Source of the DNA: an uncultured Muribaculaceae bacterium
GTDB lineage: Bacteria; Bacillota_I; Bacilli_A; RF39; UBA660
Length of the DNA: 35,065 nucleotides
Direction: 5' to 3'
Assembly (NCBI GenBank): GCA_964553435.1
Contig: CAZKKM010000003.1
Location: 1 to 35,065, forward strand
How positions within the stretch are numbered: the first letter of the stretch is position 1; each line of letters starts with the position of its first letter. The notes beneath the pieces were generated by a model. The model was not told where the DNA came from, searched no databases, and saw only the letters and a program-made list of their open reading frames with translations. Shown one piece after another: positions 569-15,925 of the stretch. The position numbers were made by a program, and so were the translations under genes.

Positions 569-597
569 TTGCAAATCATCGATACATTTTATATAAT
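569..597 (+). promoter_or_regulatory. sigma-70/SigA-type promoter for the LRR surface-protein gene
   Basis: TTGCAA (569-574), a 17-nt spacer, then TATAAT (592-597). The -10 box overlaps the track's start at 597, which argues against that start. Confidence 0.55.
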
Positions 598-626
598 TGT
601 ATCAAGATAGACGAGGAGAAAAAGAT

Positions 627-2501: not shown

Positions 2502-2550
2502 GACATACAAAAAAAAATATTTAAACTGATAAACTAGTGAAAATTTTTAA

Positions 2551-2582
2551 CCATGGATATTACAAAAAATCTATGGCTTTTT
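2551..2582 (+). terminator. rho-independent terminator after the LRR gene
   Basis: The stem pairs ccatggat (2551-2558) with atctatgg (2569-2576): 8 bp including one G-U pair. The loop is 10 nt and cTTTTT follows. Confidence 0.5.
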
Positions 2583-2709
2583 AAATTAAGTAATTTTTGA
2601 CGATTTATCTTAAGAACCGAAAGTTTTCTATAGCAGACTGAAATCGGTTTTTCTTTACTTTTATTGGCATTTATTATATAATGCATTTTAGAGTAGGTGA
2701 TAATATAAT

Positions 2710-3066
2710 ATGGACAAAAACAGAGAAGTGCTCGCACATTGCCCACATTTTTATACTATAATAAATTTCGAATATTACAGTGACGACCTCGTGTCCGAAA
2801 AACTCATAGATATATATGAACGTTTCATTTTCGGCATCGACCTTGCCGATACCGAAAGTGTCGCACGCATCGAAAAACTCGACACAGTCCTCTTCAAATA
2901 TATAAACGACTACTGTTTTAGAGAACAAGTCAAAGCCGACATGATGACGATAAAAGTTCGTCGTGGAGACAATATTTTGGAAACCATCGTGAATGCCATA
3001 TTGAAACTTTTCGATTCTTACGAACTGATGGCTACGAGAAAAATCAACATAACTAGGTGGATTTGA
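2710..3066 (+). CDS. hypothetical small cytoplasmic protein
   Basis: 118-aa ORF with AGGTGA about 10 nt upstream of the ATG. It has no TM segment and no motif I recognise. Its stop lies 2 nt before the next start, so the two are probably co-translated. Confidence 0.55.
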   Translation: MDKNREVLAHCPHFYTIINFEYYSDDLVSEKLIDIYERFIFGIDLADTESVARIEKLDTVLFKYINDYCFREQVKADMMTIKVRRGDNILETIVNAILKLFDSYELMATRKINITRWI

Positions 3067-3067
3067 T

Positions 3068-3994: not shown

Positions 3995-4035
3995 AGAACT
4001 GCACACAAATATTTACATAAAATTTACTATTATGT

Positions 4036-4064
4036 TTGACAATCTCAGTCGATTACGATAAAAT
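4036..4064 (+). promoter_or_regulatory. near-consensus SigA-type promoter for pilin-like gene 1
   Basis: TTGACA (4036-4041), a 17-nt spacer, then TAAAAT (4059-4064). The -10 box overlaps the track's TTG start at 4064, which favours the ATG at 4100. Confidence 0.6.
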
Positions 4065-4099
4065 TGATTTATAAAGTTAAGAAAGAGAGAGATGTTTTT

Positions 4100-4477
4100 A
4101 TGAACGATTTGATACTTTTTGCAGCAGGAAGTGGCGATTTCTGCAGAAATACTCACGAAATACTCGGCCTGGTCGGATGGGCACTTACGATATTTAAGGT
4201 CGTAATTCCGCTCATCATCATCGCCTTGGGATTGATCGATTTGGGTAAAGCAGCTGTTTCCAGCAAGCCTGAGGAAATCAAGAAGAGTGCTACTAGCCTC
4301 GTATACAGATTGGCCGGAGGTATTTTGATATTCTTTATTCCGACAATCATCATGTTGGTTTTCGGATTTGTCGGAAGATTTGGAGATGCACAAAACCAAC
4401 TCGACTGGGATGTCTGCTATAAATGTATCACGGCGCCTTGGGATGGCATATGTGCCAACGCAAAGAGCGATTATTAA
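4100..4477 (+). CDS. VirB2/TrbC-like (pilin-like) small membrane protein, paralog 1
   Basis: 125 aa. It has two hydrophobic helices (FKVVIPLIIIALGLIDLG and GGILIFFIPTIIMLVFGFV) separated by a short K-rich loop (SSKPEEIKKS), which is the VirB2/TrbC pilin architecture. The C-terminal tail carries CYKC-x8-C. It is paralogous to 4551-4931, 10635-11141 and the C-terminus of 5001-6197. Confidence 0.65.
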   Translation: MNDLILFAAGSGDFCRNTHEILGLVGWALTIFKVVIPLIIIALGLIDLGKAAVSSKPEEIKKSATSLVYRLAGGILIFFIPTIIMLVFGFVGRFGDAQNQLDWDVCYKCITAPWDGICANAKSDY

Positions 4478-4480
4478 CGT

Positions 4481-4509
4481 TTGACAAAATTTATGTAAAT
4501 AAGTATACT
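4481..4509 (+). promoter_or_regulatory. near-consensus SigA-type promoter for pilin-like gene 2
   Basis: TTGACA (4481-4486), a 17-nt spacer, then TATACT (4504-4509). It overlaps the track's TTG start at 4509. Confidence 0.6.
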
Positions 4510-4550
4510 TGAAATATAGTATACTTTTTATATGGAAAGGATGGTGTCGT

Positions 4551-4931
4551 ATGATATCGCTCGCCGTGAACAATTTTTGTCTCGAATTATCTCCCGTCTT
4601 GAAGATGATAGGAGATGCTCTGAACATCTTCAAAGTGACTCTTCCTCTCGTACTCATCATTCTTTGCATCTTCGACATCGGCAAGGCCGTGATTTCGTCC
4701 AAATCTTCCGACGTCAAAAAGAACATTGTAAACTGCGCCAAAAAACTGGCCGTATGCGTTCTTGTCTTCTTCATTCCGACGATATGTATGATCGTCTTCG
4801 GATTCGTCGATGCCTTCGACGAAATAACAAAAAAATCCGGACTCGACTTCGATGTCTGCTACGACTGCATGTTCAATTCATCGGGAGAAAATTGCAAATC
4901 AGCTGTCGAAATCGCCGAACTCACTTATTGA
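4551..4931 (+). CDS. VirB2/TrbC-like (pilin-like) small membrane protein, paralog 2
   Basis: ATG at 4551 follows GGAAAGGATGG. It has the same two-helix plus basic-loop layout (FKVTLPLVLIILCIFDIGKAVISSKSSDVKK...VLVFFIPTICMIVFGFV) and a C-terminal CYDC-x8-C. Confidence 0.65.
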   Translation: MISLAVNNFCLELSPVLKMIGDALNIFKVTLPLVLIILCIFDIGKAVISSKSSDVKKNIVNCAKKLAVCVLVFFIPTICMIVFGFVDAFDEITKKSGLDFDVCYDCMFNSSGENCKSAVEIAELTY

Positions 4932-4951
4932 AAATGTGAGAACAAAATTTA

Positions 4952-4980
4952 TTGTCTTTGCCCGCATAACATAGTATAAT
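4952..4980 (+). promoter_or_regulatory. possible SigA-type promoter
   Basis: TTGTCT (4952-4957), a 17-nt spacer, then TATAAT (4975-4980). The leader to the ATG at 5001 would be short and has a weak RBS. Confidence 0.4.
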
Positions 4981-5000
4981 TGAAGTAGAGTTGATGAAAA

Positions 5001-6197
5001 ATGAAAAACATTCTTAAAAAGACCCTTTTATTCGTGACGATTTTTACGTTCGGACTCGCCTCAGTCGAAGCCTACGACGTCGGTGGCACGAAAACTGTCG
5101 ATGATATGGTCGATAGCAAAACAGCCGTTTTGGTTTGTGAATATGCCAACAGCAGCGGAACCGTCTTCAATAGGATTTATTATATGTTCGAAAGTTCGGA
5201 CGGTTCTTGGACACCTGGACCGTGGGATGTCTATTATCGCAAAGGTGAAAAAAAGAACGACTTCTATCATATCGCGAATGCTTTCACCGGTGATATCATC
5301 TCGCGCGGTAGCTTCTACGAAGCACTCCAAAGGGATCAGGTCAGCTACAATTCTGACGAAAACCGCATGCCTAACGAAATGGAAGCTGTTTTCACATGTC
5401 CGACATATGCCTTCACCGACTTGGACAACTTCGATGAAATTTGCTACGGAGACAATCAAAGTTGTGGAGACAACTTCGAGTATGGTCCGTTTACACTTAC
5501 CAAGAATGGCAACACCATATTTGAAAAAATTGACAACTATATAGTCGCCTTGTTGGACAACGACGAATTCGTAAGCGCTATTAGAAACAAGACGGACATA
5601 ACGAACACACTCCGCCAAAGGGCGAGGAATTATGTCATCACGACTTGGCCACTAAGTTCGAATTACAAGATGCCGGCCTTCATCGATAACTATCTCAATA
5701 ACTTAGCTGTCGATGAAAACAATCCCAAATTGGCTGAAAGTTTCAACACTCTAAAACAAAAAGCCGTACAAGCTGTCGAAAATGAAGTGCGAATGGGTGT
5801 AAAAACCGAAGAAGAAGCGACACAAGAAAAAGCCGAAATCGAACAGTTGGAAGTGAAAGACATCATCAAAGTCAAAAGTGAAATGTCGGCCGATTTGAAC
5901 ATAAACAGCGGGACCGACTGCAATAGCATTTTGGGACAACAGATGAGCGAAATCGTCAAGAATCTATTCACCTTTATTCAATATTTGGGACCTATATTAG
6001 TCGCCGTTTTCTCGATAATGGACTTCATCAAAGCCGCCGCATCGGGAGACGAAGGACAAATGAAAAAAGCATCGGAAAAACTCATGAAGAGAATAATATG
6101 TGGAATACTTTTATTCTTCGTCCCATTGATTTGTAGTTTCCTCATGGATTTGGGTGGACTGACGATGCCCGACATCTGTATAAGACAGAAAAGATAA
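5001..6197 (+). CDS. secreted protein with a C-terminal VirB2-like pilin module (fusion)
   Basis: The signal peptide is MKNILKKTLLFVTIFTFGLASVEA|YD. A Cys-containing domain of about 250 aa and a Glu/Lys-rich linker follow. The C-terminus (IQYLGPILVAVFSIMDFIKAAASGDEGQMKKASEKLMKRIICGILLFFVPLICSFL) aligns with the three small pilin-like proteins. Confidence 0.7.
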   Translation: MKNILKKTLLFVTIFTFGLASVEAYDVGGTKTVDDMVDSKTAVLVCEYANSSGTVFNRIYYMFESSDGSWTPGPWDVYYRKGEKKNDFYHIANAFTGDIISRGSFYEALQRDQVSYNSDENRMPNEMEAVFTCPTYAFTDLDNFDEICYGDNQSCGDNFEYGPFTLTKNGNTIFEKIDNYIVALLDNDEFVSAIRNKTDITNTLRQRARNYVITTWPLSSNYKMPAFIDNYLNNLAVDENNPKLAESFNTLKQKAVQAVENEVRMGVKTEEEATQEKAEIEQLEVKDIIKVKSEMSADLNINSGTDCNSILGQQMSEIVKNLFTFIQYLGPILVAVFSIMDFIKAAASGDEGQMKKASEKLMKRIICGILLFFVPLICSFLMDLGGLTMPDICIRQKR

Positions 6198-6229
6198 AAA
6201 TTAGCTGCTTTGTCCGCTAATTTTTTTTT
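6196..6229 (+). terminator. rho-independent terminator
   Basis: The stem pairs aaaaattagc (6196-6205) with gctaattttt (6216-6225), the loop is 10 nt, and the T-run continues to 6229. Confidence 0.7.
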
Positions 6230-6292
6230 GGCTTATTTTTTTCTCTCGCACATATACTTTAGTGAATTGCCGTAAGAAAAGAGGATAAATTC

Positions 6293-6862
6293 ATGCTATA
6301 TAAAATCGTTCGTCCATTTGTCAAACTTTTCGTGAGGCTCTGCTTTCATCCCAAAATAATAAATGCAGAAAATATCCCTCCGTCTGGTCCAGTAATTCTT
6401 GCTGGCAACCACACGAGTAATTTCGATGCTTTACTTCTCATGTCGACGACGAAGCGACCGATATCGTTCTTGGGAAAACACACACTTCCGCGTTTCTTCG
6501 TAAAATATCTTCGTGTCATTCCTGTCGACCGCACGAAATCTCGCAATCCAGAAGCATTGAGGCTTGCTCGCAATGTTCTAAAAGGAGATAACATCGTCGG
6601 GATTTTTCCCGAAGGAACGATCAACAGAACTGCCGAATTGACGATGCCTTTCAAGATGGGTGCAGTATCTCTAGCGGCCAAAAACTCGGTGCCTTTAGTT
6701 CCTTTCATCATTACCGGGAAATACGCATTATTTAAAGGAAATTTGAAGATAAAATTCCTACCTCCTCGGCAAATTATGAAAGACGACATTCAATACGAAA
6801 ATGCCCGCCTCATGGCCGACATTGGAAGTAACATAGAAAGGGAAAAGAATGAAAACAACTAA
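6293..6862 (+). CDS. PlsC-family (lysophospholipid/1-acyl-glycerol-3-phosphate) acyltransferase
   Basis: AAGAGGA RBS. LPLAT motifs are present: block I AGNHTSNFD (HX4D), VIPVDR, and FPEGT. 189 aa. Confidence 0.8.
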   Translation: MLYKIVRPFVKLFVRLCFHPKIINAENIPPSGPVILAGNHTSNFDALLLMSTTKRPISFLGKHTLPRFFVKYLRVIPVDRTKSRNPEALRLARNVLKGDNIVGIFPEGTINRTAELTMPFKMGAVSLAAKNSVPLVPFIITGKYALFKGNLKIKFLPPRQIMKDDIQYENARLMADIGSNIEREKNENN

Positions 6863-8564
6863 ATCTTTTGATTGGTCATCGAAAAAGAAAACCGATTCGC
6901 TGAAAATTTCTGCCGCATCTATGTACGATTATCTCGTCGATGCAGTAGGGGATGACACCGACTATTTTGCACTCAACTATTTTGGTAATCGCATCACTTA
7001 CTCGAAGATGTTCAGAACCATAAATCTTCTATCCAAATGTCTTAAAGAATCTGGTATAAAAAAAGGAGACATCGTGACTGTCTGTCTTCCGAATATGCCT
7101 GTAGCGGTAGAACTTTTCTATGCTATAAACAAAATAGGGGCCGTCGTCGACATGGTTCATCCTCTATCATCTCCGGCCGAACTGAAGAACTTTCTTCAAA
7201 AAAACCACTCGCATATTTTGTTTCTTTACGATGCAAACTATGAAAAAATATCTAAAATTATCTCTTCGACCGACGTCAACAAAGTCATCCTCATTTCTGT
7301 TTCGGAGGATATGCCCAAACTTACGAAGACGATATACAATCTTACTAAAGGCTTACGTCTATTAAAATCTCCCAAAGAAGATGCGACTTATATCATGTGG
7401 AAAGACTTTGTAAATCTCGGTTACTCGGTGCGAAACTTCAAGTCGCCTAAGATATCCAAAGACGACATCGCCGTCATCCTTCACAGCGGAGGAACTACAG
7501 GCACACCAAAAGGAATAATGCTTACCAATTATAACTTCAATGCTCTCGCCGTACAGGGAGCTGTGAACGTACAAAACGTCGAAGCCAAAGACAAGATTTT
7601 GACAATTCTGCCACTTTTTCATGGATTCGGCTTGGGTGTATGTGTCCATTGTCCTCTGACTCTAAAAGTAGAGGTCATTCTTCATCCCGAATTCACTCCC
7701 AAAAGTTTTGCTTCCATACTGAAAAAGTACACCCCTCAAGTTCTAGCTGGAGTTCCAACTCTATTCGAATCGATGCTCGCAAATCCCATCTTCTCCAAAA
7801 TAGATTTATCTTCGTTAAAATACATGATAAGCGGAGGAGACAATTTGCCTGTCGAACTCGAACATAAAATTAATTCTTTCCTTCAAAGACATTCTGCCCA
7901 AATAAAATTGACAAAAGGATACGGTATGACAGAAAGCCTCGCCGCGACCATCTTCACATTTCCAGACTCTAACAAACCGGGTTCGATAGGTACTCCCATG
8001 CTCGGCAATACAGTTCGCATATGTCGGTTAGGTACGAACGAAGAGGTGTATGCTAAAACGGTCGGAGAAATATGCGTCCATGGTCCGACGATCATGAAAG
8101 GTTACTATGATGAAGAAAAGGAAACGGCCAAAATCTTACATCTTCACGACGACAAAAAAATATATCTCCACACTGGCGATTTGGGATACGAAGACGAAAG
8201 AGGACTAATTTATTTCACCGGTCGCCTCAAGCGCCTCATCGTCTCGAGCGGTTTCAACATCTATCCCGCTCAGATCGAAGAAGTTTTGATGAAACATAAA
8301 AATGTCTCTTCTTGCTGTGTCATCGGCATCCCTCATCCTTACAAAATGCAAGTTGCCAAAGCATATGTCGTTTTAAAAGACGGTCGACCGACCGATAAAC
8401 TTAGAGCTGAGCTGCGACTTCTTTGCAAAGAAGAACTGGCCTCGTACTCACAACCCAAAGAATATGAATTTGTCGAAAGTTTGCCGAAGACCATTTACAA
8501 TAAAACGGATTATAAAAAACTAGAAGAAGAGGAGAAACGAAAATATGAAGAAAGAAAAAAGTAG
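6849..8564 (+). CDS. AMP-dependent acyl-CoA/acyl-ACP synthetase (long-chain fatty-acid ligase family)
   Basis: Adenylate-forming motifs are present: HSGGTTGTPKG (A3), GYGMTES (A5), TGDLGY (A7) and GRLKRLIV (A8). It overlaps the upstream gene by 14 nt. Confidence 0.85.
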   Translation: MKTTKSFDWSSKKKTDSLKISAASMYDYLVDAVGDDTDYFALNYFGNRITYSKMFRTINLLSKCLKESGIKKGDIVTVCLPNMPVAVELFYAINKIGAVVDMVHPLSSPAELKNFLQKNHSHILFLYDANYEKISKIISSTDVNKVILISVSEDMPKLTKTIYNLTKGLRLLKSPKEDATYIMWKDFVNLGYSVRNFKSPKISKDDIAVILHSGGTTGTPKGIMLTNYNFNALAVQGAVNVQNVEAKDKILTILPLFHGFGLGVCVHCPLTLKVEVILHPEFTPKSFASILKKYTPQVLAGVPTLFESMLANPIFSKIDLSSLKYMISGGDNLPVELEHKINSFLQRHSAQIKLTKGYGMTESLAATIFTFPDSNKPGSIGTPMLGNTVRICRLGTNEEVYAKTVGEICVHGPTIMKGYYDEEKETAKILHLHDDKKIYLHTGDLGYEDERGLIYFTGRLKRLIVSSGFNIYPAQIEEVLMKHKNVSSCCVIGIPHPYKMQVAKAYVVLKDGRPTDKLRAELRLLCKEELASYSQPKEYEFVESLPKTIYNKTDYKKLEEEEKRKYEERKK

Positions 8565-9147
8565 CAAAAGAGAATGGGGTTACCGCCTTTTAAAGCCGAT
8601 CCTCGCTCCAATTTTTTACCTTTATTATCGCCCGAAGTTGATAAATAAAAATGTGATACCTAAAAGAGGACCGATTATCTTTGCTGGAAATCACAAACAC
8701 ATCCTGGATCAATGTCTCGTCATCATCTCTACTAATAGAGTCGTCCATTACATGGCCAAAAAAGAATACTTCGAAGGTCCCTTTGCGTGGTTTTTCAAAC
8801 TGACAGGTACTATTCGTGTCGACCGCGAAATCCACGATGAAGAAGCCAAAGAGCAGGCTTTGGACGTTTTAAAATCCGACCGCGCCTTGGGCATATTCCC
8901 AGAAGGAACCCGCAACAAGACGGACGAATTGTTGTTACCTTTTAAAAGAGGCTGTGTTTCTTTCGCTCAAAAGACTAATGCGACCATCGTTCCATTTGCC
9001 ATAAAAGGCGAATACAAATTTCATAAGTCGAATCTCAGAATAGTTTTCGGAGAACCTTTCACCGTAGCACAAGATGCAAACCTGCAAGAAGCCAACGAAC
9101 ACTTGCGAAACACGATTGCCGATTTATTGACAGATGAAAAACTGTGA
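8545..9147 (+). CDS. second PlsC-family acyltransferase
   Basis: AGNHKHILD (HX4D), IRVDRE, FPEGTRN. GAGGAG RBS. It overlaps the ligase gene by 20 nt. Confidence 0.8.
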   Translation: MKKEKSSKREWGYRLLKPILAPIFYLYYRPKLINKNVIPKRGPIIFAGNHKHILDQCLVIISTNRVVHYMAKKEYFEGPFAWFFKLTGTIRVDREIHDEEAKEQALDVLKSDRALGIFPEGTRNKTDELLLPFKRGCVSFAQKTNATIVPFAIKGEYKFHKSNLRIVFGEPFTVAQDANLQEANEHLRNTIADLLTDEKL

Positions 9148-9238
9148 GAGATTTCGAGTAAAAATAACCTCAAGATAATAACAGGGGTTTATTTTTAAGG
9201 CTTTATAAATCGAACAGATTGTGGTATCATATCACTAG

Positions 9239-10528
9239 GTGATGATGATGAAAAAGAGAACATTGTTCTTAAGCATAGTCTTGACTATCGCGACATTTAT
9301 TATAGGTACCAGCCCAGTCTCAGCTTTGATCGACAGCTGGGTAGGTGGCACGATAATCGTAAAATGGGTAGATTACGGCGACCCTAGAGGTGAAAGACCT
9401 GATTCTATCGATTTGGTCGTCGGAGATAGACTCTATACGAATCAACATCAGACGATTACTCTAAATGTCCAAGATGCCCAAGTCACGAACAATTCGAAGG
9501 ACAAAGAATTCGATTCTCCTGTGACCGAATGGAAATTTAGCAAAGGAAACTACGATACGTTTTTTAAGCATTACGGTGATAAAGCGGGTTGTTTGTATGA
9601 ATACAGTTATATAGAGAATTTGAGTGATTTGGGCTATGCTGAACTCGATAGTCATATAACTGGCAATTTGCATCCGGCAAAATTTTCGATGTCGGGAACC
9701 CTTTTGGAAGATGCTGGAACCCTCGTCATAACACTGATTAAAGATACTCTGACGACCAAAAACTTGACTGTCAAATATATCGACGGAGATCTTCGCGACG
9801 GTAACGACGTAAGAAAATTGGAGTTCGCGATAAGAGGAGAGAATGTCGCGGACCCGATCGCACAAAATGCATACTATAAATTTAATATCGAACCCGAAGA
9901 TACTATAAAGATAGATGGCATAAGAGATACGTATACGAAGAGTATAATAATATCGGCTTCAGATGCTTATCAAACGGGAAATCCGATGATCGATTACGTT
10001 TTCGACGAAGACACTCACAATATCGATGGACGAACGATAAACTATGAAATCGACGGAAACGATATACTGGTGACAGTCGATTATCGAGCTAAGACGAAAA
10101 ATGTTTCGATAGAAATAGAATGGCAAGATGGTGAAGATAAATTGGGATTGAGACCATCCTCTTTGATCTTGAAGGCATACGATCAAAAAGGCAACCTCGA
10201 GAATACTGTGTCTTTATCCAAAGATCACAATTGGATTACAAAAGAAACTTTATATGAAAATATGAAACATTCTGACGGCACGGCCATCGAATACGATATG
10301 AAAATAGAGGACGAAGGCGAATACGAGTATAGAACTATTAAAGATGGGGACAACTACAAAATAATAGCCAAACTAAAAGGACACGAAGACGAAGGTGAAA
10401 AAATTATAGATGATCCTAAAAAAGAAAACAATCCTAAGACTGGTATTTTTATGGGACAGTACATTTTGATGTTCGTCATAAGCCTAGTCGGTTTGATTGG
10501 TCTTTTTACAAGCATCAAAAAAGACTGA
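9239..10528 (+). CDS. cell-wall-anchored surface protein with CnaB-type repeats and an NPKTG sorting signal
   Basis: The start is ambiguous among GTG 9239 and ATGs at 9242, 9245 and 9248. The signal peptide is KKRTLFLSIVLTIATFIIGTSPVSA. CnaB-like signatures are 'IVKWVDYGDPRGERPDSIDLVV' and 'IEIEWQDGEDKLGLRPSSLILKAY'. At the C-terminus, NPKTG (10430-10444) is followed by a hydrophobic stretch and KKD, forming a sortase sorting signal. Confidence 0.8.
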   Translation: MMMMKKRTLFLSIVLTIATFIIGTSPVSALIDSWVGGTIIVKWVDYGDPRGERPDSIDLVVGDRLYTNQHQTITLNVQDAQVTNNSKDKEFDSPVTEWKFSKGNYDTFFKHYGDKAGCLYEYSYIENLSDLGYAELDSHITGNLHPAKFSMSGTLLEDAGTLVITLIKDTLTTKNLTVKYIDGDLRDGNDVRKLEFAIRGENVADPIAQNAYYKFNIEPEDTIKIDGIRDTYTKSIIISASDAYQTGNPMIDYVFDEDTHNIDGRTINYEIDGNDILVTVDYRAKTKNVSIEIEWQDGEDKLGLRPSSLILKAYDQKGNLENTVSLSKDHNWITKETLYENMKHSDGTAIEYDMKIEDEGEYEYRTIKDGDNYKIIAKLKGHEDEGEKIIDDPKKENNPKTGIFMGQYILMFVISLVGLIGLFTSIKKD

Positions 10529-10542
10529 CAGATGAAAAAATG

Positions 10543-10564
10543 AAAGAGAGCGATCTCTTTTTTC
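10543..10564 (+). terminator. weak rho-independent terminator
   Basis: The stem pairs aaagaga (10543-10549) with tctcttt (10554-10560), the loop is gcga, and TTTT follows. The stem is A/T-rich, so the terminator is weak. Confidence 0.4.
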
Positions 10565-10607
10565 TTTGGCTTCAAGCCAAATATTTCTTTATTATCTCGA
10601 CCGATTA

Positions 10608-10616
10608 TGTTATAAT
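10608..10616 (+). promoter_or_regulatory. extended -10 promoter element for the MPF operon
   Basis: TGtTATAAT at 10608-10616 with no good -35 box. It lies inside the track's upstream extension (10566), which favours the ATG at 10635. Confidence 0.4.
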
Positions 10617-10634
10617 TTTGTTAATGGTGAAATT

Positions 10635-11141
10635 ATGAAAAAAATTGTATTATGTTTTTTGTTGCTTTTGACGAGTGTATTTGTGAATACGACCGCTGTC
10701 GAAGCAAAAATTATGCCTTTTTATGATGATGTAATCGAGAAGTTCGATGACGTGGAAATTCCATCTACGGACTATCATCGTCCCGACAACTTCAATAGAA
10801 ACTGTGCCGATTTCGCGAGCACGATCAAGATGGCCGGTGTCTGCTTGTTCTTTGCCAAAATCATCTTGCCGCTCATCATCATCGCGACGGCTTCCATCAA
10901 CATGATGAAGGTCGTGAGCTCTGGTAAACAAGACGAAATAATGAAACAGGCCAAAAAGGCAGGAGTATCCCTCATTGGAGCAATCCTCGTCTTTTTCTTG
11001 CCGACCATCATCTATACCATCTACAGCTTCATCGATAATTTCGAAGAAAACAGGACGAACGATTCAAAAATATGCTATGCCTGTGTCTTCAAGCCTTACG
11101 GCAATTTGTGCACACAATATGCCACATATTACAAAGAGTAG
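10635..11141 (+). CDS. VirB2/TrbC-like (pilin-like) protein with a signal peptide, paralog 4
   Basis: ATG at 10635 follows GGTGA. The signal peptide is MKKIVLCFLLLLTSVFVNTTAVEA. The two-helix module (FFAKIILPLIIIATASINMMKVVSSGKQDEIMKQAKK...AILVFFLPTIIYTIYSFI) is followed by CYAC-x8-C. It sits immediately upstream of the VirB6-, VirB3- and VirB4-like genes. Confidence 0.7.
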   Translation: MKKIVLCFLLLLTSVFVNTTAVEAKIMPFYDDVIEKFDDVEIPSTDYHRPDNFNRNCADFASTIKMAGVCLFFAKIILPLIIIATASINMMKVVSSGKQDEIMKQAKKAGVSLIGAILVFFLPTIIYTIYSFIDNFEENRTNDSKICYACVFKPYGNLCTQYATYYKE

Positions 11142-11153
11142 GAGGAAAACGAT

Positions 11154-13271
11154 ATGCTGAATCAATTGATGTTAGTAGGTGGGAATTGGTTTTTGGATAT
11201 CTTCAAAATGTTGACACATATGCTGGATCAGGGAATATATTTTCTCGCCCAATGTGCCTACCAGGTATTCTATTTCATCGCCAACGCGACCATTTTGAAC
11301 GATACCATAGTACGAAATTTCACTCTTAGAATATACACTCTCATCGGTATAGTCATGGTCTTTGTCTTGGCTTTCAACCTCTTGAGTTACATCGTCGACC
11401 CCGATAAGATTACCGATAAAAAAGTTGGAGCATCCTCCTTCGTCAAGGATGTCATTTTGGCTATAGCCATCATTTCTCTTTCTCCGATGCTGTTCACCAA
11501 ATTATATTCGCTTCAATCGGCTATCCTGACTTCGGGTGTCATCGAAAATCTCATCTTGGGAGGTACGACGGATGAAAACTTTAAAACCGAAGATGAATGG
11601 AAAAACAATCAAGGAAGTAGTAAAACTTATGCCGAATACATGATTGCCAATGGTGGCAACAACATGGTGGCCTCGGTGTATGTCGCCTTCCTGTATCCGG
11701 CCGATGGGTCGTTTACCGCATTGGATTGTGGCAATTCCAATCACGAAAAAGCCGCGACCTACGCAGATTATTGTGAAGCCTATCAAAAGGTCAAAGAAGG
11801 CGAATCGCTGAGCGCATTCGACGATTTCATAACGAACGAAGAATACAATTTCACTCCATTCTTGACGACCGTCGCCGGTATCGTTCTATTGTTCTTCATG
11901 TTATCGTTTTGTATCAATCTGGCCAAGCGAGTCGGGAAGATGGCTATCGTTCAACTCATCGCTCCAGTTCCAGTCACCCTGGAACTGTTGCCCAATAAGA
12001 AGGGCCTGCGTGACAATTGGTTGAAGACCCTTGCCAAAGTCTATTTAGAAGTCTTCTTCTACATGGCTGTCATGTTCTTGGTCATACTTCTCATATCTTT
12101 GGTTCCGGGAACCATTCAAACACTGCTCGGTAACTCCGGCGCCAATACCTCGACTGCCGGAACGGCAATATTCACCACCCTGACATCCGGCCCGGTCAAA
12201 CTTTTTGCAACAGTCATACTCATCTATGGACTCTTGATGTTCGGTAAAGAAGCACCTCAGATGCTCTTCGATTTGCTCGGTATCAAGAGTACCGGTATCA
12301 TCAAAGAAGCTGCAAACAGAGCTCTCGTCATGGCTGGCTCTACCAAAAATGCTTTGGAAGCAGGTGGAGGAAACTTCATACGAGGTATAACCGAAAACAA
12401 GGGAGTAGGAAGAGTAGGAGGTGCTCTATTCGGAGCAGGTTCGGCCATTACTCGAAACTTATGGGCTGGAAGAAATGCCAAAAGTTGGGCCGACACCGAG
12501 AAGAACAGAAAACAAATCAACGAAGGTATCACACGTCGCCGTATCAACAGACAGGCATACAACTTCGAACATGGTGGCTGGGCTGGTGGAGTAGCAGGTC
12601 ACATGAGCGACGGCTTGGGTTCTATGAACAAGAGTTTCAAATCGGCAACTTCTATTGCTTTGGGCTATCAAAAGAAAAAGGAACAGGAAACCGTATTTGG
12701 AGACTTGAAGAAAAAAGCAAATGCCGGCATAATGGATATCATCAAGAACGATTCTACATATCAACTTCTGAGAGAAGAATATTTGCGTACAGGAAGTACA
12801 ACAGCCAAAAACAATATGGAAGCCCGTGTTAAAGAATTGATGAAGAATAACACGAGTAAGTTGAAAGTCGGTTTTGGAGAAATAAACGGCTTCGTCGGTT
12901 CTCACCAAAATGTCGTGGGAATGTCCAAAACTCAATTGGATCCTAATAAATTCATCGATGCTTCTACCGGTAAATTTGATGCAACGAAAATGTTCAAGTT
13001 AGATAGCTCTGGAAATATCGAATTCGATAGCGAAGGTAATGTAAGCTTCAATACTGATATAAACGATGTCGTCAAAGGTGTCGATGTGAAAGAAACTTAT
13101 GTCGACTTGACTGGAACAAGAGTTACTAAGACCGATAAAGTTCCTACTCATCGTGCCAACGATTTGGAATATCAAAATCAAAAAGCACGTGAAACCATCA
13201 ATGAACGCGTTCGCGAAGAAGCAAGGAAATCGGCTCAAGATAAACAGGCAGAAAACAAGCCTAAAAATTAA
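11154..13271 (+). CDS. VirB6/TrbL-like polytopic conjugal-transfer membrane protein with a long hydrophilic C-terminal domain
   Basis: Strong RBS (GGAGGAAAA). It has at least six hydrophobic segments in the first ~400 aa and then a ~300-aa polar, Gly/Lys-rich tail. The position between the pilin-like and VirB3/VirB4 genes matches PrgH/Orf15/ConG-type proteins. The assignment rests on topology and synteny only. Confidence 0.6.
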   Translation: MLNQLMLVGGNWFLDIFKMLTHMLDQGIYFLAQCAYQVFYFIANATILNDTIVRNFTLRIYTLIGIVMVFVLAFNLLSYIVDPDKITDKKVGASSFVKDVILAIAIISLSPMLFTKLYSLQSAILTSGVIENLILGGTTDENFKTEDEWKNNQGSSKTYAEYMIANGGNNMVASVYVAFLYPADGSFTALDCGNSNHEKAATYADYCEAYQKVKEGESLSAFDDFITNEEYNFTPFLTTVAGIVLLFFMLSFCINLAKRVGKMAIVQLIAPVPVTLELLPNKKGLRDNWLKTLAKVYLEVFFYMAVMFLVILLISLVPGTIQTLLGNSGANTSTAGTAIFTTLTSGPVKLFATVILIYGLLMFGKEAPQMLFDLLGIKSTGIIKEAANRALVMAGSTKNALEAGGGNFIRGITENKGVGRVGGALFGAGSAITRNLWAGRNAKSWADTEKNRKQINEGITRRRINRQAYNFEHGGWAGGVAGHMSDGLGSMNKSFKSATSIALGYQKKKEQETVFGDLKKKANAGIMDIIKNDSTYQLLREEYLRTGSTTAKNNMEARVKELMKNNTSKLKVGFGEINGFVGSHQNVVGMSKTQLDPNKFIDASTGKFDATKMFKLDSSGNIEFDSEGNVSFNTDINDVVKGVDVKETYVDLTGTRVTKTDKVPTHRANDLEYQNQKARETINERVREEARKSAQDKQAENKPKN

Positions 13272-13288
13272 GAAAAGAGGAATAAAGG

Positions 13289-13612
13289 ATGAATGGCAAT
13301 TATTTGATTCCGGCAAACTCGAAAAAGTCGGAAATGATACTGGGATTATTTACACCGGTCGATTTGATACTGTTCTCGAGTGGTGTGGGACTGACAGTCG
13401 TGTTGGTTCTCGCCCTCGCGGCCCGTACCAGTTCGGTCACGGCGATGATATTGATGTTGCTGCCCGCACTCATATCGGCATTTTTGGTCTTCCCTGTACC
13501 GAATTACCACAACGTGCTACAGCTCATAATCAATATATACTCGTTCTTCTTCGTAAGACAAAGAACGTACAAATGGAGAGGTTGGTGTTTTAAAGATGGC
13601 AGTGACAAATAA
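13289..13612 (+). CDS. PrgI/VirB3-like small membrane protein
   Basis: 107 aa with two TM segments (ILGLFTPVDLILFSSGVGLTVVLVLAL and MILMLLPALISAFLVFPV). It lies directly upstream of VirB4 and overlaps it by 17 nt, the canonical VirB3/PrgI/TcpE position. Confidence 0.55.
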   Translation: MNGNYLIPANSKKSEMILGLFTPVDLILFSSGVGLTVVLVLALAARTSSVTAMILMLLPALISAFLVFPVPNYHNVLQLIINIYSFFFVRQRTYKWRGWCFKDGSDK

Positions 13613-14144
13613 ATCGACTGAAGATTGGCTTCCGATCAAAGCCATAAATAATGGAATGATTTTATTGGACAACGGTTATTTGGTGACCGGAGTCAAAATA
13701 GAACCGAAAAACATCTTCATCTTGGATCAGGATGTTCAAAACAGTGTCATCTTCTCGCTGCGCAACTTCTACAACACGATCGACTACGAATTCTGGCTCA
13801 TCTCAGCCGGCCGTCCGGTCGACATAAACGTTTACTTGGCGAACTTACAAGTACAATACAACAATACGAATAACCAGCACATCAGAAAGCTTCTGATGCA
13901 AGACATATCCAAAGCCAACATGTTCATGAGCACACAGTTGAACGCAGTCGACACCGAATATTTCATACTGTTCAAAGAAAAAAAACCTGAAATCATTCAA
14001 AAAAGACTACAGACCCTGATAGGTGGGTTGGCAAATTGCACGTTGAACAGCAAACAAGTATCGAATGATGACTTGCGCATGCTATTAGATAACTTCTTCA
14101 ACGGTGCTGAAAGTTCGAGATTTGGGGCGGTGACGAGCGCATGA
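13596..14144 (+). CDS. VirB4-family ATPase, N-terminal fragment (separate ORF)
   Basis: 'EDWLPIKAINNGMILLDNGYLVTGVKIEPKNIFILDQDVQNSVI..F' matches the N-terminus of monoderm VirB4 proteins (PrgJ/TcpF/Orf16 type). It ends at TGA 14142-14144, inside an ATGA overlap with the next ORF. Confidence 0.7.
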   Translation: MAVTNKSTEDWLPIKAINNGMILLDNGYLVTGVKIEPKNIFILDQDVQNSVIFSLRNFYNTIDYEFWLISAGRPVDINVYLANLQVQYNNTNNQHIRKLLMQDISKANMFMSTQLNAVDTEYFILFKEKKPEIIQKRLQTLIGGLANCTLNSKQVSNDDLRMLLDNFFNGAESSRFGAVTSA

Positions 14145-15925
14145 GTTTAAAAAGTGAAATAGCCCCTAAGGGCATAGAATGGAAACCAACTTCTTTCCGT
14201 CTCGGGGACAAATATTGTACGATTTTGACGGTCATAAGTTATCCTAAGTTCATCGATCATGGCTATTTGGCCAACATCACGAACATTCCAGGAGTCAAAG
14301 TCGTCATCAAGCATTTGCCGATAGATTTTGCCTTGATGAGAAAGATGATAGATAAGGAGATAGCGGATTTAAAAGAGCGCTTCCAAAAGGAAAATGACCA
14401 CACCTTACAAGAGAGAATTCGTCAGGACTACGAATCGCTCGAAGGCTTCATTCAACAGCTTGCCGCTTCCAGTGCCAAGATTTTCGACTTTCAAATGCAC
14501 ATTCTCTTGAGTGGAGACACCGAAGAAGAACTCGAAAATCGCAAACTCGAGATGAAAACATACATGACAGGAATGGATATGAGGGGGATACCTCTCATGT
14601 TCGAGCAGGAAAAAGTTCTAAAATCTATGATTCCGATTTTCCCTAAACAGGACATCGAAGACAGAATAGGAACTCCGATTCCATCGAACACCATCGCGGC
14701 TATGTATCCGTTCGTCTTCGATTCGATCAAAGATCCGGGACTCAGTACACTTCTCGGAGTGGATTTCTCGGGCGGAGTCGTACTTTTCAACCAGTTCCTC
14801 TATCAAATCAAAAAGGAACACAACCGCAATAACGCGAACATGCTCATATTGGGTGCTTCTGGTTCAGGTAAATCGACCGCAGCAAAACTTCTTTTGAGAA
14901 ATCATTTCCGCAACGAATACAAGATAGTTGCCATCGACCCAGAAGGCGAGCTAGAAGAAATGTGTAAGAACTTTAATGGCGACTTCATCAACCTTGGAAA
15001 AGGTGGACAACTCGGAATGATCAATCCTTTGGAAGTGATCGTCGACGAAGACGAAGAGGACCTCGACAAAGGACTAAGCTATGCCGTTTTGACACGCACA
15101 TTGTCTACACTCAAAGCTTTCATGACCTATCTGTACCCCGATATAGAAGACGACGTTCTAACATTGTTCTCGGACGTCGCCCAAGATACATACAAAAGAT
15201 TTAATATCGATTTCAATACGGATTTTAGAAAATTCAAAAGTACAGATTATCCTACATTCGACGATATCTATGCTACGATCAGAGGTAAAATACTATCCAT
15301 GCCGGAGCATACTCGCGAACGCGATGTCATGGAAAGACTCGAACTGAAGATACGACCTATCACCAAAGAACTTCGTTACTACTTTAACGGTCATACGACG
15401 ATCGAACCGGAAAGCAACTTCGTCGTCTTCAATATAAGAGAACTGATGAATTCCGATTCTGCTATCAGAAATGCATTGTTCTTCAATATTTTGAAGTATT
15501 CATGGAGTCTATGCCTCGACAAAGATATAAACACCGTTTTGTACGTCGACGAAGCTCACGTCTTACTCGGAAGTCAGAATGAACTAGGTGCAGAATTCCT
15601 TGCTCAAATTCAAAGACGTAGCCGCAAATACAACACGGGAACGATCATCATAACCCAACAGCCGACAGATTTTGCGGCAGATAAGATCATCATGCACGGC
15701 AAGGCGATATTCGACAATGCCAGTTACTACTTGGCGATGGGACTCAAAAAACAAGCCGTCGAAGACTTATCAAAACTCGTCGATTTGAACGAAAATGAAA
15801 TGGAATCGATAAAACGGTTCAGCCAAGGACAAGGTCTGTTCGTCTGCGGTTCTCGTCGAATGCAGATAAACGTCGTCCTCACACAAGAAGAACTCGATTC
15901 GTTCGGAACGGGTGGAGGATTATAA
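14141..15925 (+). CDS. VirB4-family conjugal-transfer ATPase, main part
   Basis: Walker A is LILGASGSGKST and Walker B is VLYVDEAHVLL. 'RRSRKYNTGTIIITQQPTDF' is also present. The middle-domain start 'IAPKGIEWKPTSFRLGDKYCTILTVISYPKF' is typical of VirB4. Confidence 0.85.
   Translation: MSLKSEIAPKGIEWKPTSFRLGDKYCTILTVISYPKFIDHGYLANITNIPGVKVVIKHLPIDFALMRKMIDKEIADLKERFQKENDHTLQERIRQDYESLEGFIQQLAASSAKIFDFQMHILLSGDTEEELENRKLEMKTYMTGMDMRGIPLMFEQEKVLKSMIPIFPKQDIEDRIGTPIPSNTIAAMYPFVFDSIKDPGLSTLLGVDFSGGVVLFNQFLYQIKKEHNRNNANMLILGASGSGKSTAAKLLLRNHFRNEYKIVAIDPEGELEEMCKNFNGDFINLGKGGQLGMINPLEVIVDEDEEDLDKGLSYAVLTRTLSTLKAFMTYLYPDIEDDVLTLFSDVAQDTYKRFNIDFNTDFRKFKSTDYPTFDDIYATIRGKILSMPEHTRERDVMERLELKIRPITKELRYYFNGHTTIEPESNFVVFNIRELMNSDSAIRNALFFNILKYSWSLCLDKDINTVLYVDEAHVLLGSQNELGAEFLAQIQRRSRKYNTGTIIITQQPTDFAADKIIMHGKAIFDNASYYLAMGLKKQAVEDLSKLVDLNENEMESIKRFSQGQGLFVCGSRRMQINVVLTQEELDSFGTGGGL

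What the first reader, a model, noticed from the sequence alone, without database searches (positions are those of the whole stretch)
4100..11141. Four paralogous VirB2-like modules sharing a conserved cysteine signature (N-proximal Cys plus C-terminal CYxC-x8-C)
The proteins at 4100-4477, 4551-4931 and 10635-11141, and the C-terminus of 5001-6197, align well. The shared pattern is helix 1, then (D/N)(I/L/F/M)(G/I/M)K(A/V)(A/V/I)(S/A)S(K/G), a Lys-rich loop, then helix 2 containing (L/V)(I/V/L)FF(I/V/L)P(T/L)I.

The three small proteins all end with exactly spaced cysteines:
- CYKC-x8-C (4415-4453)
- CYDC-x8-C (4857-4895)
- CYAC-x8-C (11073-11111)

All four also have one Cys about 10-15 residues before helix 1 (FCRNTHE, FCLELSP, NCADFAS, DCNSILG). 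In VirB2/TrbC topology both termini face outward. These cysteines could therefore form a disulfide staple between the N- and C-terminal tails, which would functionally resemble the head-to-tail cyclisation of TrbC and T-pilin. They could also form a small metal-binding knuckle. I do not know this signature from described pilins. Having several paralogs suggests major and minor subunits or antigenic variants.
Basis: partly seen in the sequence, partly recalled or inferred. Interest (0 to 1): 0.75.

Follow-up and report, generated by a model that had tools for sequence, protein, structure and literature searches.

The report
Disulfide-stapled pilin-like proteins beside a T4SS
An uncultured small-genome gut bacterium carries four related two-helix membrane proteins of the "type IV secretion pilin" family next to a secretion machine, and their outward-facing ends carry cysteines whose pattern points to disulfide bridges tying the two ends together, a feature I found described nowhere.

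Summary
All four ORFs are paralogs (BLASTP 4e-32 to 8e-10), and every cysteine sits at the stated coordinates.

**Family.** They belong to Pfam PF18895 (T4SS_pilin). They show no detectable similarity to proteobacterial TrbC/VirB2 (hhalign probability below 1%). A cysteine-free core profile finds 9317 cluster representatives.

**Cysteine rule.**
- One Cys lies just before helix 1, and an odd number (1, 3, 5, 7...) follow helix 2.
- 165 of 175 ORFs obey this as called. Eight more do once the start codon is corrected.
- The cysteines are invariant inside otherwise hypervariable tails.
- CxxC is fixed, but the gap to the third Cys varies (x6 and x8 dominate).
- This fits disulfides, including one N-tail-to-C-tail staple, and argues against a metal site.

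**Topology.** Charge bias and fusions to signal-peptide ectodomains or C-terminal wall hydrolases put both tails outside the cell.

**Context.** The hosts are RF39-like gut Bacilli. The neighbouring T4SS is chromosomal and of the Gram-positive type, with no relaxase in the window. Relatives of the short class more often follow a CpaB/T2SSE-ATPase cluster. The two-cysteine ectodomain fusions are strictly T4SS-linked (21/21 against 0/50 loci).

Filament formation and the actual disulfide bonds remain unproven. I rate this a new variant of a known kind.

The parts
4100..4477 (+). P1, a 125-aa short pilin-like protein of the (1 N-proximal Cys, 3 C-tail Cys) class. Cys codons: C15 4142-4144, C106 4415-4417, C109 4424-4426, C118 4451-4453.
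   Evidence: ORF and translation. 106 homologs, nearly all with the same 4 Cys. AF2 pLDDT 84, helical hairpin H19-54/H57-90 plus a structured C-tail. Loop net charge +2, tails -2 and -3.
4551..4931 (+). P2, a 126-aa short pilin-like paralog of the (1,3) class. External Cys: C10 4578-4580, C103 4857-4859, C106 4866-4868, C115 4893-4895. Further Cys lie in the TM helices and loop.
   Evidence: BLASTP against P1 4e-32. Alignment. Cys positions.
5001..6197 (+). 398-aa fusion: signal peptide, an ectodomain of about 290 aa with no PDB fold match, then a C-terminal pilin module of the (1,1) class. Module Cys: C307 5919-5921 and C393 6177-6179. Ectodomain Cys: C46, C133, C148, C155.
   Evidence: PF18895 31.5 bits, above the 26.6 cut-off, at residues 313-381. 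14 homologs with invariant C46, C133, C307, C393. AF2 pLDDT 78. Foldseek against PDB found nothing.
10635..11141 (+). P3, a 168-aa pilin-like paralog with a cleavable-looking signal peptide (first 24 aa, ...AVEA|K) and a 45-aa external N-extension, (1,3) class. External Cys: C57 10803-10805, C147 11073-11075, C150 11082-11084, C159 11109-11111. It lies directly upstream of the VirB6-like gene.
   Evidence: Translation. BLASTP against P1 9e-23. PF18895 14.8 bits.
4036..4064 (+). Promoter-like site TTGACA-17-TAAAAT (11/12), 36 nt upstream of the P1 start codon.
   Evidence: This is a consensus match only.
4481..4509 (+). Promoter-like site TTGACA-17-TATACT (11/12), 42 nt upstream of the P2 start codon.
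   Evidence: This is a consensus match only.
4952..4980 (+). Promoter-like site TTGTCT-17-TATAAT (10/12) upstream of the 398-aa gene.
   Evidence: This is a consensus match only.
11154..13271 (+). VirB6-like polytopic T4SS membrane protein (related to the pLS20_p028, MMCAP2_0566 and Mbov_0396 families).
   Evidence: NCBIfam 9.7e-8, 5.1e-7 and 3.6e-5, all below cut-off.
13289..13612 (+). VirB3/PrgI-like small membrane protein.
   Evidence: Pfam PrgI 0.0027, TcpE 0.016.
13596..15925 (+). VirB4 ATPase encoded as two overlapping ORFs: TrsD-like N-part 13596-14144 and ATPase 14141-15925.
   Evidence: NCBIfam VirB4_plasma 1.2e-14 and 7.5e-109; TrsD/TraD 3.8e-4. AAA_10 and TraG P-loop. The same two-part order is seen in 19 related loci.
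15946..18033 (+). Cell-wall hydrolase (Peptidase_M23 plus lysozyme), the VirB1 analogue of Gram-positive T4SSs.
   Evidence: Pfam 6.2e-24 and 1e-9.
19091..21355 (+). VirD4-type coupling protein.
   Evidence: Pfam T4SS-DNA_transf 2.1e-55, TrwB_AAD_bind 5.1e-25.

Best explanation
The four modules are paralogous members of the PF18895 'T4SS pilin' family. This is a VirB2-like architecture, not demonstrable VirB2 homology. They belong to a chromosomal, Gram-positive-type (MPF-FATA-like) type IV secretion system of an RF39-like gut Bacillus.

**Proposed topology (inferred).** Each module inserts as a helical hairpin. The conserved Lys-rich loop faces the cytoplasm and both tails face outward.

**Proposed disulfides (inferred).**
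- The single Cys just before helix 1 bonds to one Cys of the C-tail. This ties the two ends into a covalently closed subunit, functionally comparable to the head-to-tail cyclisation of TrbC and T-pilin.
- In the short proteins, the other two C-tail cysteines (of CxxC-xN-C) form a second, local disulfide. It braces a small, sequence-variable surface knob.

**Proposed roles (inferred).**
- The short proteins, each with its own strong promoter-like site, would be the bulk subunits.
- The 398-aa protein, with one staple only and a large N-terminal ectodomain, would be a low-copy, T4SS-specific subunit that displays an adhesin-like domain.

**Shown here:** paralogy, family membership, conservation and parity of the cysteines, T4SS neighbourhood, and fusion architectures.

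**Inferred only:** the topology, actual disulfide formation and pairing, polymerisation into a filament, and the major/minor roles.
For: **Family and neighbourhood**
- PF18895 hits.
- Pairwise paralogy.
- T4SS genes directly downstream.

**Hairpin and topology**
- AF2 hairpin with a confident C-tail; pLDDT 87-91 for residues 101-120.
- Loops carry net charge +2 to +4; tails are net negative except P3's neutral C-tail and the 398-aa protein's +2 C-tail.
- N-terminal signal-peptide-plus-ectodomain fusions are common in the family.
- C-terminal fusions exist to Peptidase_M23, Amidase_3, Peptidase_C39_2, GDSL lipase and an alpha/beta hydrolase. These place both termini outside the cell.

**Cysteine rule**
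- 175 ORFs in 81 loci give (N-proximal, C-tail) counts of (1,3) x132, (1,1) x27, (1,5) x4 and (1,7) x2. The eight (2,3) cases are ORF-start artefacts.
- 150 representatives at <=50% identity, found with a profile that contains no Cys column, give (1,3) x111, (1,5) x10, (1,1) x5, (1,7) x2, (1,9) x1 and (1,13) x3.
- Because the C-tail count is always odd, one C-tail Cys must pair outside the tail.

**Paired gain of cysteines**
- P0113 and P0115 gained one extra Cys on the N side and one in the C-tail. Their sister P0116 has neither.
- P0151 and P0247 are (2,4).

**Conservation pattern**
- The loop and helices are conserved (0.73-1.09 bits). The tails are variable (1.7-3.0 bits) with invariant Cys. 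This is the pattern expected if the loop faces a conserved partner or lumen and the tails face outward.
- Other predicted external proteins of the window also carry paired Cys: Ig-like C134/C141, VirB6 loop C192/C207, hydrolase C92/C99.

**T4SS linkage**
- The (1,1) ectodomain fusions occur in 21 of 21 loci with VirB6/B3/B4 and in 0 of 50 loci with only the T2SSE cluster.

**Promoters**
- The best promoter-like matches in 2500-11400 lie just upstream of P1 and P2.
Against: - No sequence or profile link to bona fide VirB2/TrbC. Foldseek gives only generic hairpins.
- No PF18895 member has, to my knowledge, been shown to form a filament.
- The 398-aa model has low confidence exactly at C307 and C393.
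- 85 of 148 short-class genes in relatives lie in loci with a CpaB/T2SSE-ATPase cluster and no VirB4 within 10 kb. Some are orphans in housekeeping contexts.
- Enzyme fusions fit a membrane-anchor role as well as a pilin role.
- No thiol-disulfide oxidoreductase gene is in the window, and the hosts are gut anaerobes.
- A few sequences break parity (P0065 and P0069 have 3 Cys; L005 10465-10833 has 1+4).
Confidence: 0.55

Rival explanations
1. The two-helix module is a disulfide-stapled membrane anchor or docking unit that does not polymerise. It holds ectodomains (adhesin-like domains, wall hydrolases, lipases) at the cell surface, or plugs into the membrane part of the secretion machine. The short versions would be stand-alone machine subunits.
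For: - Many architectures carry large domains at either end, including Peptidase_M23, Amidase_3, C39-like, GDSL lipase and esterase.
- Orphan copies sit in housekeeping contexts.
- The most conserved part is the cytoplasmic loop, which could be a docking surface for an ATPase.
- No filament evidence exists.
Against: - The family is curated as T4SS pilin and is arrayed in tandem like the VirB2-like arrays of Patescibacteria (PMC12102498).
- The short versions carry nothing to anchor.
- The strong individual promoter-like sites suit abundant structural subunits.
Confidence: 0.25
2. The short (1,3)-class proteins work with the neighbouring CpaB-like/T2SSE-ATPase (Tad- or VirB11-like) machine seen in relatives, rather than with VirB4. 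They would be its filament subunit or an accessory, and their position next to the T4SS in this window would be secondary.
For: - In 64 of 81 loci the genes lie directly downstream of that cluster, and in 50 loci no VirB4 lies within 10 kb.
- In L091 the order is T2SSE ATPase, 298 aa, 262 aa, then the pilin-like gene, with nothing in between.
- The ATPase's best NCBIfam hits are VirB11 (1.6e-33) and a TadA-family conjugal ATPase (6e-31).
Against: - This window has no such cluster, yet it has three short-class genes embedded in the T4SS cluster.
- Known T2SSE-driven filaments use single-helix prepilins with a class III signal peptide, and those clusters carry their own such candidates.
- The two polytopic proteins are not recognisable TadB/C.
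- VirB11 itself is a T4SS component, so the two clusters may form one system.
Confidence: 0.12
3. The four cysteines form a small metal-binding (zinc-knuckle-like) site built from the N- and C-tails.
For: A CxxC motif plus two further invariant Cys is a classic Cys4 pattern.
Against: - Variants with 2, 6, 8, 10 or 14 external Cys keep only the parity, not a Cys4 set.
- The third Cys spacing ranges from 4 to 18.
- The site is predicted to be extracytoplasmic.
- No His or Asp co-ligands are conserved.
Confidence: 0.04
4. They are holins, bacteriocin-immunity proteins or other small membrane proteins unrelated to secretion.
For: They are small two-helix proteins. Weak noise hits to GPCR and DUF families.
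Against: - No holin or immunity family is hit in Pfam, NCBIfam or PHROGs.
- The only recurrent family hit is PF18895.
- The (1,1) class shows strict synteny with VirB6/B3/B4.
Confidence: 0.03

Closest known systems
Pfam PF18895 T4SS_pilin: the VirB2-like pilin arrays of Patescibacteria (e.g. the essential six-gene array of Ca. Southlakia epibionticum)
   Same: - Same Pfam family.
- Tandem arrays of divergent paralogs next to a chromosomal MPF-FATA-type T4SS (VirB4, TrsD, PrgI/VirB3, VirB6) without a relaxase nearby (PMC12102498; PMC12857230).
   Different: - The host is a Firmicute (RF39-like Bacilli), not Patescibacteria. Reviews state that VirB2-like pilins are absent from Gram-positive T4SSs apart from Patescibacteria.
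- The cysteine staple and the parity rule are not mentioned in those papers.
- Whether Patescibacterial members carry the cysteines was not tested here.
- A VirD4 coupling protein is present in this window.
TrbC/VirB2 pilins of proteobacterial MPF-T systems (PF04956), including the cyclic T-pilin and RP4 TrbC
   Same: - Small size, with a hairpin of two hydrophobic helices joined by a short basic loop and both termini outside.
- The gene lies just upstream of virB3/virB4-type genes.
- Covalent linkage of the two ends is the proposed functional analogy.
   Different: - No detectable sequence or profile similarity (hhalign probability 0.2-0.6%).
- The linkage would be a disulfide rather than a peptide bond.
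- No TraF-like cyclase or peptidase is in the window.
- P1 and P2 lack the long signal peptide.
NCBIfam NF045849, the Mbov_0395 family pilin-like conjugal transfer protein of Mycoplasma ICEs
   Same: - Same gene order: pilin-like, then Mbov_0396-like membrane protein, then Mbov_0397-like VirB4. The window's VirB4 scores 364.7 bits to that VirB4 model.
- Same two-helix size class.
   Different: - Scores of only 10.6-11.0 bits against a cut-off of 40.
- The window's system is not on a recognisable ICE: no integrase, relaxase or tRNA.
Disulfide-bonded C-terminal loop (D-region) of type IV pilins, and the BdbDC-dependent disulfide of the ComGC pseudopilin (from my own knowledge)
   Same: A conserved disulfide braces a variable, surface-exposed C-terminal loop of a filament subunit, including in Gram-positive bacteria.
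   Different: - Unrelated fold (a single N-terminal helix plus a globular head).
- Different assembly machine.
- No N-to-C staple.

Membership tests
Pfam PF18895 T4SS_pilin | Score above the curated gathering cut-off (26.6 bits) | tested here: met
   The 398-aa protein scores 31.5 bits over residues 313-381, covering the whole 71-position model. The small proteins alone are below cut-off (13.1 bits, no hit, 14.8 bits). They are nevertheless homologous to the 398-aa module (8e-10), and 31 of 35 family members hit PF18895 at E<=0.1, best 1.8e-8.
Pfam PF18895 T4SS_pilin | Two-helix hairpin of about 70 residues | tested here: met
   AF2 gives helices 19-54 and 57-90 in P1 at pLDDT 90-93, and helices 312-348 and 351-384 in the 398-aa protein.
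Pfam PF18895 T4SS_pilin | Encoded next to T4SS core genes (VirB4, VirB6, VirB3) | tested here: met
   Met in the window. In relatives the picture is mixed: T4SS genes lie within 10 kb in 21 of 81 loci. All 21 contain the (1,1) fusion class, while most short-class genes lie elsewhere.
Pfam PF18895 T4SS_pilin | Forms an extracellular pilus | not testable with these tools
   No oligomer prediction or experiment was possible. The literature treats pilus formation by this family as a possibility only (PMC12857230).
TrbC/VirB2 (PF04956) | Sequence or profile similarity to the family | tested here: not met
   No Pfam hit. hhalign of 21- and 107-sequence family alignments against 8 annotated VirB2/TrbC proteins gives probability 0.2% and 0.6%. 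A PDB sequence search finds no pilin.
TrbC/VirB2 (PF04956) | Topology with both termini outside and a basic loop inside | tested here: met
   This is a prediction only. Loops carry charge +2 to +4 and most tails are negative or neutral. Signal-peptide ectodomains occur at the N-terminus, and wall hydrolases or lipases at the C-terminus of family members.
TrbC/VirB2 (PF04956) | Structural match to solved conjugative pilins | tested here: inconclusive
   Foldseek against the PDB gives no hit at E<=0.001 and no pilin among the top 50. Helical hairpins are poorly discriminated by this method.
TrbC/VirB2 (PF04956) | Head-to-tail peptide cyclisation with a dedicated peptidase (cyclic subgroup only) | not tested
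   No S26/TraF-like peptidase was recognised in the window's ORFs. The chemistry itself cannot be tested here.
NCBIfam NF045849 Mbov_0395 pilin-like conjugal transfer protein | Score above the curated cut-off (40 bits) | tested here: not met
   10.6, 10.8 and 11.0 bits.
Type IV (T2SSE-driven) pilins, Flp/Tad pilins | Single N-terminal hydrophobic helix after a class III signal peptide | tested here: not met
   There are two hydrophobic helices and no G/xxxxE-type leader. Separate candidates of that kind exist in the relatives' T2SSE cluster.
Cys4 zinc-knuckle-like metal site | An invariant set of four metal ligands with fixed spacing | tested here: not met
   The external Cys count is 2, 4, 6, 8, 10 or 14 with only parity conserved, and the third-Cys spacing ranges from 4 to 18.
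Holins or bacteriocin-immunity proteins | Match to a holin or immunity profile | tested here: not met
   None found in Pfam, NCBIfam or PHROGs.

The most novel reading that the evidence does not exclude
RF39-like gut Bacilli are uncultured and, from my own knowledge, have small genomes. They may build a Patescibacteria-style, non-conjugative T4SS apparatus whose VirB2-like subunits are closed by disulfide staples instead of peptide cyclisation. Minor subunits would carry adhesin, peptidoglycan-hydrolase or lipase domains. This would be a pilus or needle used to attach to, and feed on, other cells. It would be the first pilus-forming T4SS in Firmicutes and a hint that these bacteria live as epibionts.
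Probability: 0.2. Interest if true: 0.85.

Novelty: new variant of a known kind. Interest (0 to 1): 0.62.

Why it matters
Current reviews state that Gram-positive T4SSs lack VirB2-type pilins, with Patescibacteria as the single exception (PMC12857230, PMC12102498). This window and its relatives bear on that in four ways.

- **The family is abundant elsewhere.** 243 genomic matches were found among species-representative genomes. All 80 loci kept come from uncultured gut MAGs, most of them labelled Bacilli or Tenericutes, and there are thousands of metagenomic clusters. It may therefore be a general feature of reduced-genome monoderms.
- **The family has a simple hallmark.** It is one Cys before helix 1, then CxxC-xN-C or a single Cys after helix 2. 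This can be used to find and subclassify members that fall below Pfam's cut-off.
- **The staple is directly testable.** A disulfide staple would be an independent chemical solution to the problem that TrbC and T-pilin solve by cyclisation. Gels, mass spectrometry and mutagenesis can test it.
- **The fusions suggest what is displayed.** The strictly T4SS-linked ectodomain fusions and the enzyme fusions suggest how such machines could present adhesins or lytic enzymes. That bears on the unknown lifestyle of a prevalent, uncultured human gut lineage.

Tried and rejected
- **PDB sequence search with the family profile.** It returned only GPCR and transporter transmembrane noise.
- **Foldseek of the P1 model and the 398-aa model against the PDB.** No hit at E<=0.001. 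This is uninformative for a helical hairpin. The ectodomain has no match.
- **Measuring Cys-Cys distances.** Model coordinates are not exposed to the sandbox, so this was impossible.
- **hhalign against eight real VirB2/TrbC proteins fetched from plasmids.** No relationship was detected, so homology to PF04956 is rejected as unsupported.
- **tblastn of P1 against 72,556 plasmids.** No match, so the family is not on sequenced plasmids at this sensitivity.
- **PHROGs scan for holins.** Nothing found.
- **Search for a thioredoxin/DsbA-like or relaxase/integrase gene and for tRNAs in the window.** None found.
- **Pfam scan of 36 members of the relatives' T2SSE-cluster proteins, to confirm TadB/C, TadZ and Flp identities.** No supporting hits. 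Only the CpaB-like and ATPase assignments stand.
- **Context look-up of a high-GC representative, P0172.** The contig was too short to be useful.
- **Literature searches for VirB2 with disulfide or cysteine, and for RF39 with T4SS.** No prior description was found. The TANB77 'pilin' paper concerns CpaF-type pilins, not this family.
- **GTDB placement in RF39.** I could not confirm this from the held text of the chicken-gut paper. It rests on record titles, NCBI 'Bacilli incertae sedis' and my own recollection.

Full report
**1. What is in the window.**

All genes in the region lie on the + strand. The order is as follows:

| Coordinates | Product |
|---|---|
| 597-2501 | DUF285/LRR surface protein |
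| 2710-3066 | 118-aa unknown |
| 3068-3994 | Ig-like membrane-anchored protein |
| 4100-4477 | P1 |
| 4551-4931 | P2 |
| 5001-6197 | 398-aa protein |
| 6293-9147 | Acyltransferase, AMP-binding enzyme, acyltransferase |
| 9239-10528 | Cna_B surface protein |
| 10635-11141 | P3 |
| 11154-13271 | VirB6-like protein |
| 13289-13612 | VirB3/PrgI-like protein |
| 13596-14144 | TrsD-like protein |
| 14141-15925 | VirB4 ATPase |
| 15946-18033 | M23-plus-lysozyme wall hydrolase |
| 18052-19034 | Two unknowns |
| 19091-21355 | VirD4 coupling protein |
| from 21465 | rimP-nusA-infB-rbfA-truB |

No relaxase, integrase or tRNA is present. The system therefore looks like a chromosomal, Gram-positive-type T4SS rather than an obvious integrative element.

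**2.

- The four modules align, and a family HMM finds exactly these four ORFs in the window.
- Pairwise BLASTP gives 4e-32 (P1-P2), 9e-23 (P1-P3) and 8e-10 (P1 against the C-terminus of the 398-aa protein).
- The N-proximal Cys is 4-10 residues, not 10-15, from helix 1.
- The x8 spacing is only the commonest of several spacings in the family.

**3. Family identity.**

- The 398-aa protein passes Pfam's cut-off for PF18895 T4SS_pilin (31.5 against 26.6 bits).
- The three short proteins are individually sub-threshold. However, 31 of 35 relatives hit PF18895 at E<=0.1, best 1.8e-8.
- No holin or immunity family matches.
- The family shows no detectable similarity to genuine proteobacterial VirB2/TrbC. 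I fetched eight annotated VirB2/TrbC genes from plasmids, and hhalign gave probabilities of 0.2% and 0.6%.
- Foldseek of a good AF2 model (pLDDT 84) returned only generic hairpins.
- 'VirB2-like' is therefore an architectural statement plus Pfam's label, not shown homology.

**4. Cysteine rule.**

- Of 106 homologs of P1, nearly all have the same four cysteines. In a 107-sequence alignment, C15, C106 and C109 are invariant and C118 is 93% conserved.
- In 175 family ORFs from 80 genomic loci plus the window, the counts (Cys just before helix 1, Cys after helix 2) are:
  - (1,3) x132
  - (1,1) x27
  - (1,5) x4
  - (1,7) x2
  - (2,3) x8, where the extra Cys lies upstream of an internal Met that matches the family start
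  - one (1,4) and one truncated ORF
- To avoid circularity, I built a 78-column core profile that excludes every cysteine column. I searched it against 1.84 billion cluster representatives. It found 9317 hits at E<=1e-3 and 3574 at E<=1e-10.
- Among the best 150, which are at most 50% identical to one another, the same rule holds: (1,3) x111, (1,5) x10, (1,1) x5, (1,7) x2, (1,9) x1 and (1,13) x3. The exceptions are mainly fragments.
- An always-odd C-tail count with a single N-side Cys means that one C-tail Cys must find its partner outside the tail. The N-proximal Cys is the obvious candidate.
- Two independent cases of paired gain support this. P0113 and P0115 have one extra Cys on each side while P0116 has neither. 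P0151 and P0247 are (2,4).
- A fixed Cys4 metal site cannot explain 2, 6, 8, 10 or 14 cysteines.
- Column entropy shows invariant cysteines embedded in hypervariable tails (1.7-3.0 bits). The cytoplasmic loop and the helices are conserved (0.73-1.09 bits).

**5. Topology.**

- Loops are net positive and tails net negative or neutral, apart from the 398-aa protein's short C-tail at +2.
- P3 and the 398-aa protein have N-terminal signal peptides followed by external segments.
- Family members carry C-terminal Peptidase_M23, Amidase_3, C39-like, GDSL-lipase and esterase domains, which act outside the cell.
- Both tails, and hence the cysteines, are therefore predicted to be extracytoplasmic.
- Other external proteins of the window also carry paired cysteines. 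This suggests the lineage forms extracellular disulfides, although no oxidoreductase gene is in the window.

**6. Hosts and context.**

- A scan of one genome per species found 243 relatives. All 80 loci kept come from uncultured gut MAGs. Most are labelled Bacilli or Tenericutes, and some carry other labels such as Muribaculaceae or Agathobacter. Named examples include Firmicutes bacterium CAG:582 and CAG:460 and Ca. Onthocola. From my own knowledge these correspond to the order RF39.
- No source names these proteins, and none is on a sequenced plasmid.
- Three contexts emerged:
  - **Window-like:** the 118-aa and Ig-like genes, then the pilin-like genes, then the T4SS.
  - **Downstream of a conserved cluster:** CpaB-like proteins, a T2SSE ATPase (best hits VirB11 and TadA-family), two polytopic proteins and small hydrophobic-N-terminus proteins. 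This occurs in 64 of 81 loci, of which 14 continue directly into VirB6/B3/B4 and 50 do not.
  - **Orphans:** for example between an ezrA-like gene and iscS/thiI.
- The (1,1) class, whose median length is 374 aa and which consists mostly of ectodomain fusions like the window's 398-aa protein, is present in all 21 loci with T4SS genes and in none of the 50 T2SSE-only loci.
- The short class is not exclusive to T4SS loci.

**7. Mechanism proposed.**

- The modules are hairpin subunits of a PF18895-type T4SS surface structure.
- Their outward tails are tied by a disulfide, an analogue of TrbC/T-pilin cyclisation.
- In the short class, a second disulfide braces a variable knob.
- The three upstream genes each have a near-consensus promoter-like site, which suits abundant subunits.
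- The fusion protein would be a T4SS-specific minor or tip subunit.
- Paralogy, family membership, the cysteine rule, fusion architectures and synteny are shown. Topology, bond formation, bond pairing and polymerisation are inferred.
- Rivals are a non-polymerising anchor or docking module, a role with the T2SSE machine, a metal site, and holin or immunity functions. The last two are poorly supported.

**8. Comparison and novelty.**

- The closest described systems are the VirB2-like pilin arrays next to relaxase-less MPF-FATA T4SSs of Patescibacteria (PMC12102498). A 2025 review calls these unique among monoderms (PMC12857230).
- The present case extends that arrangement to Firmicutes and adds an undescribed cysteine hallmark.
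- I found no paper linking VirB2-type pilins with such disulfides, or RF39 with T4SSs.
- I rate it a new variant of a known kind, with interest 0.62.

Noticed in passing
L035 2578-9572 (also 63 other loci, e.g. L013, L017, L046); absent from the window: A conserved cluster lies immediately upstream of the pilin-like genes in most relatives. It contains one or two CpaB-like proteins, a T2SSE ATPase (best NCBIfam hits VirB11 and TadA-family), two polytopic proteins, 1-3 small Cys-rich Flp-like proteins, two TadE/F-like proteins and a 329-aa protein. In 14 loci it runs straight on into VirB6/B3/B4, as if it were one super-cluster.
   Followed up: partly
window 6293-9147: A PlsC-type acyltransferase, an AMP-binding (acyl-CoA-synthetase-like) enzyme and a second acyltransferase are inserted inside the pilin array, between the 398-aa gene and P3. 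The same trio sits at the same place in L004 and L005. Conjugative pili contain stoichiometric phospholipid, so a link to pilin-lipid assembly is conceivable but untested.
   Followed up: partly
window 9239-10528: A 429-aa Cna_B-domain surface protein ends in NPKTG, then a hydrophobic stretch, then KKD. This looks like a sortase-B-type cell-wall sorting signal. It is a candidate adhesin of the T4SS cluster. tblastn at E<=1e-5 found no match in any related locus.
   Followed up: no
window 13596-15925: VirB4 is encoded as two ORFs overlapping by ATGA: a 182-aa TrsD-like N-part and a 594-aa ATPase. The same two-part order is seen in 19 related loci, so it is probably a genuine split and not a frameshift.
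   Followed up: partly
window 2710-21355 and flanks: The T4SS cluster has a VirD4 coupling protein but no relaxase, integrase, tRNA or recognisable repeat boundary. It abuts rimP-nusA-infB-rbfA-truB. It looks domesticated, as reported for Patescibacteria.
   Followed up: partly
P0239, P0160, P0147, P0199, P0254, P0184 (metagenomic representatives): The pilin-like module is fused at its C-terminus to Peptidase_M23, Amidase_3, Peptidase_C39_2, a GDSL lipase or an alpha/beta hydrolase. These are lytic enzymes mounted on the two-helix module.
   Followed up: partly
L060 9941-10372 and L062 9941-10372: An orphan, signal-peptide-bearing family member with the full cysteine signature sits in a conserved housekeeping context (efp ... 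ezrA-like, pilin-like, iscS-like, thiI-like) in two species that also have a T2SSE-linked copy elsewhere.
   Followed up: partly
window 5001-5900 (residues 25-300 of the 398-aa protein): The ectodomain is predicted with confidence (pLDDT mostly 80-94) as a mixed beta/alpha fold with two conserved Cys pairs. It has no Foldseek match in the PDB and only 14 sequence homologs.
   Followed up: partly
window 597-2501: The DUF285/LRR surface protein has cysteines at a strict 26-residue period (335, 361, 387 ... 543), one per repeat.
   Followed up: no
window 4100-4140 and family N-termini: The short proteins without a signal peptide share a conserved N-terminus, MNxLxLLGxGxxxFC. It is unclear whether this is a short leader that is removed or part of the mature tail.
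   Followed up: no
window 4013-4774, minus strand: A 253-aa ORF runs antisense to P1 and P2. I take it to be spurious, since the + strand genes are conserved in over 100 homologs.
   Followed up: no
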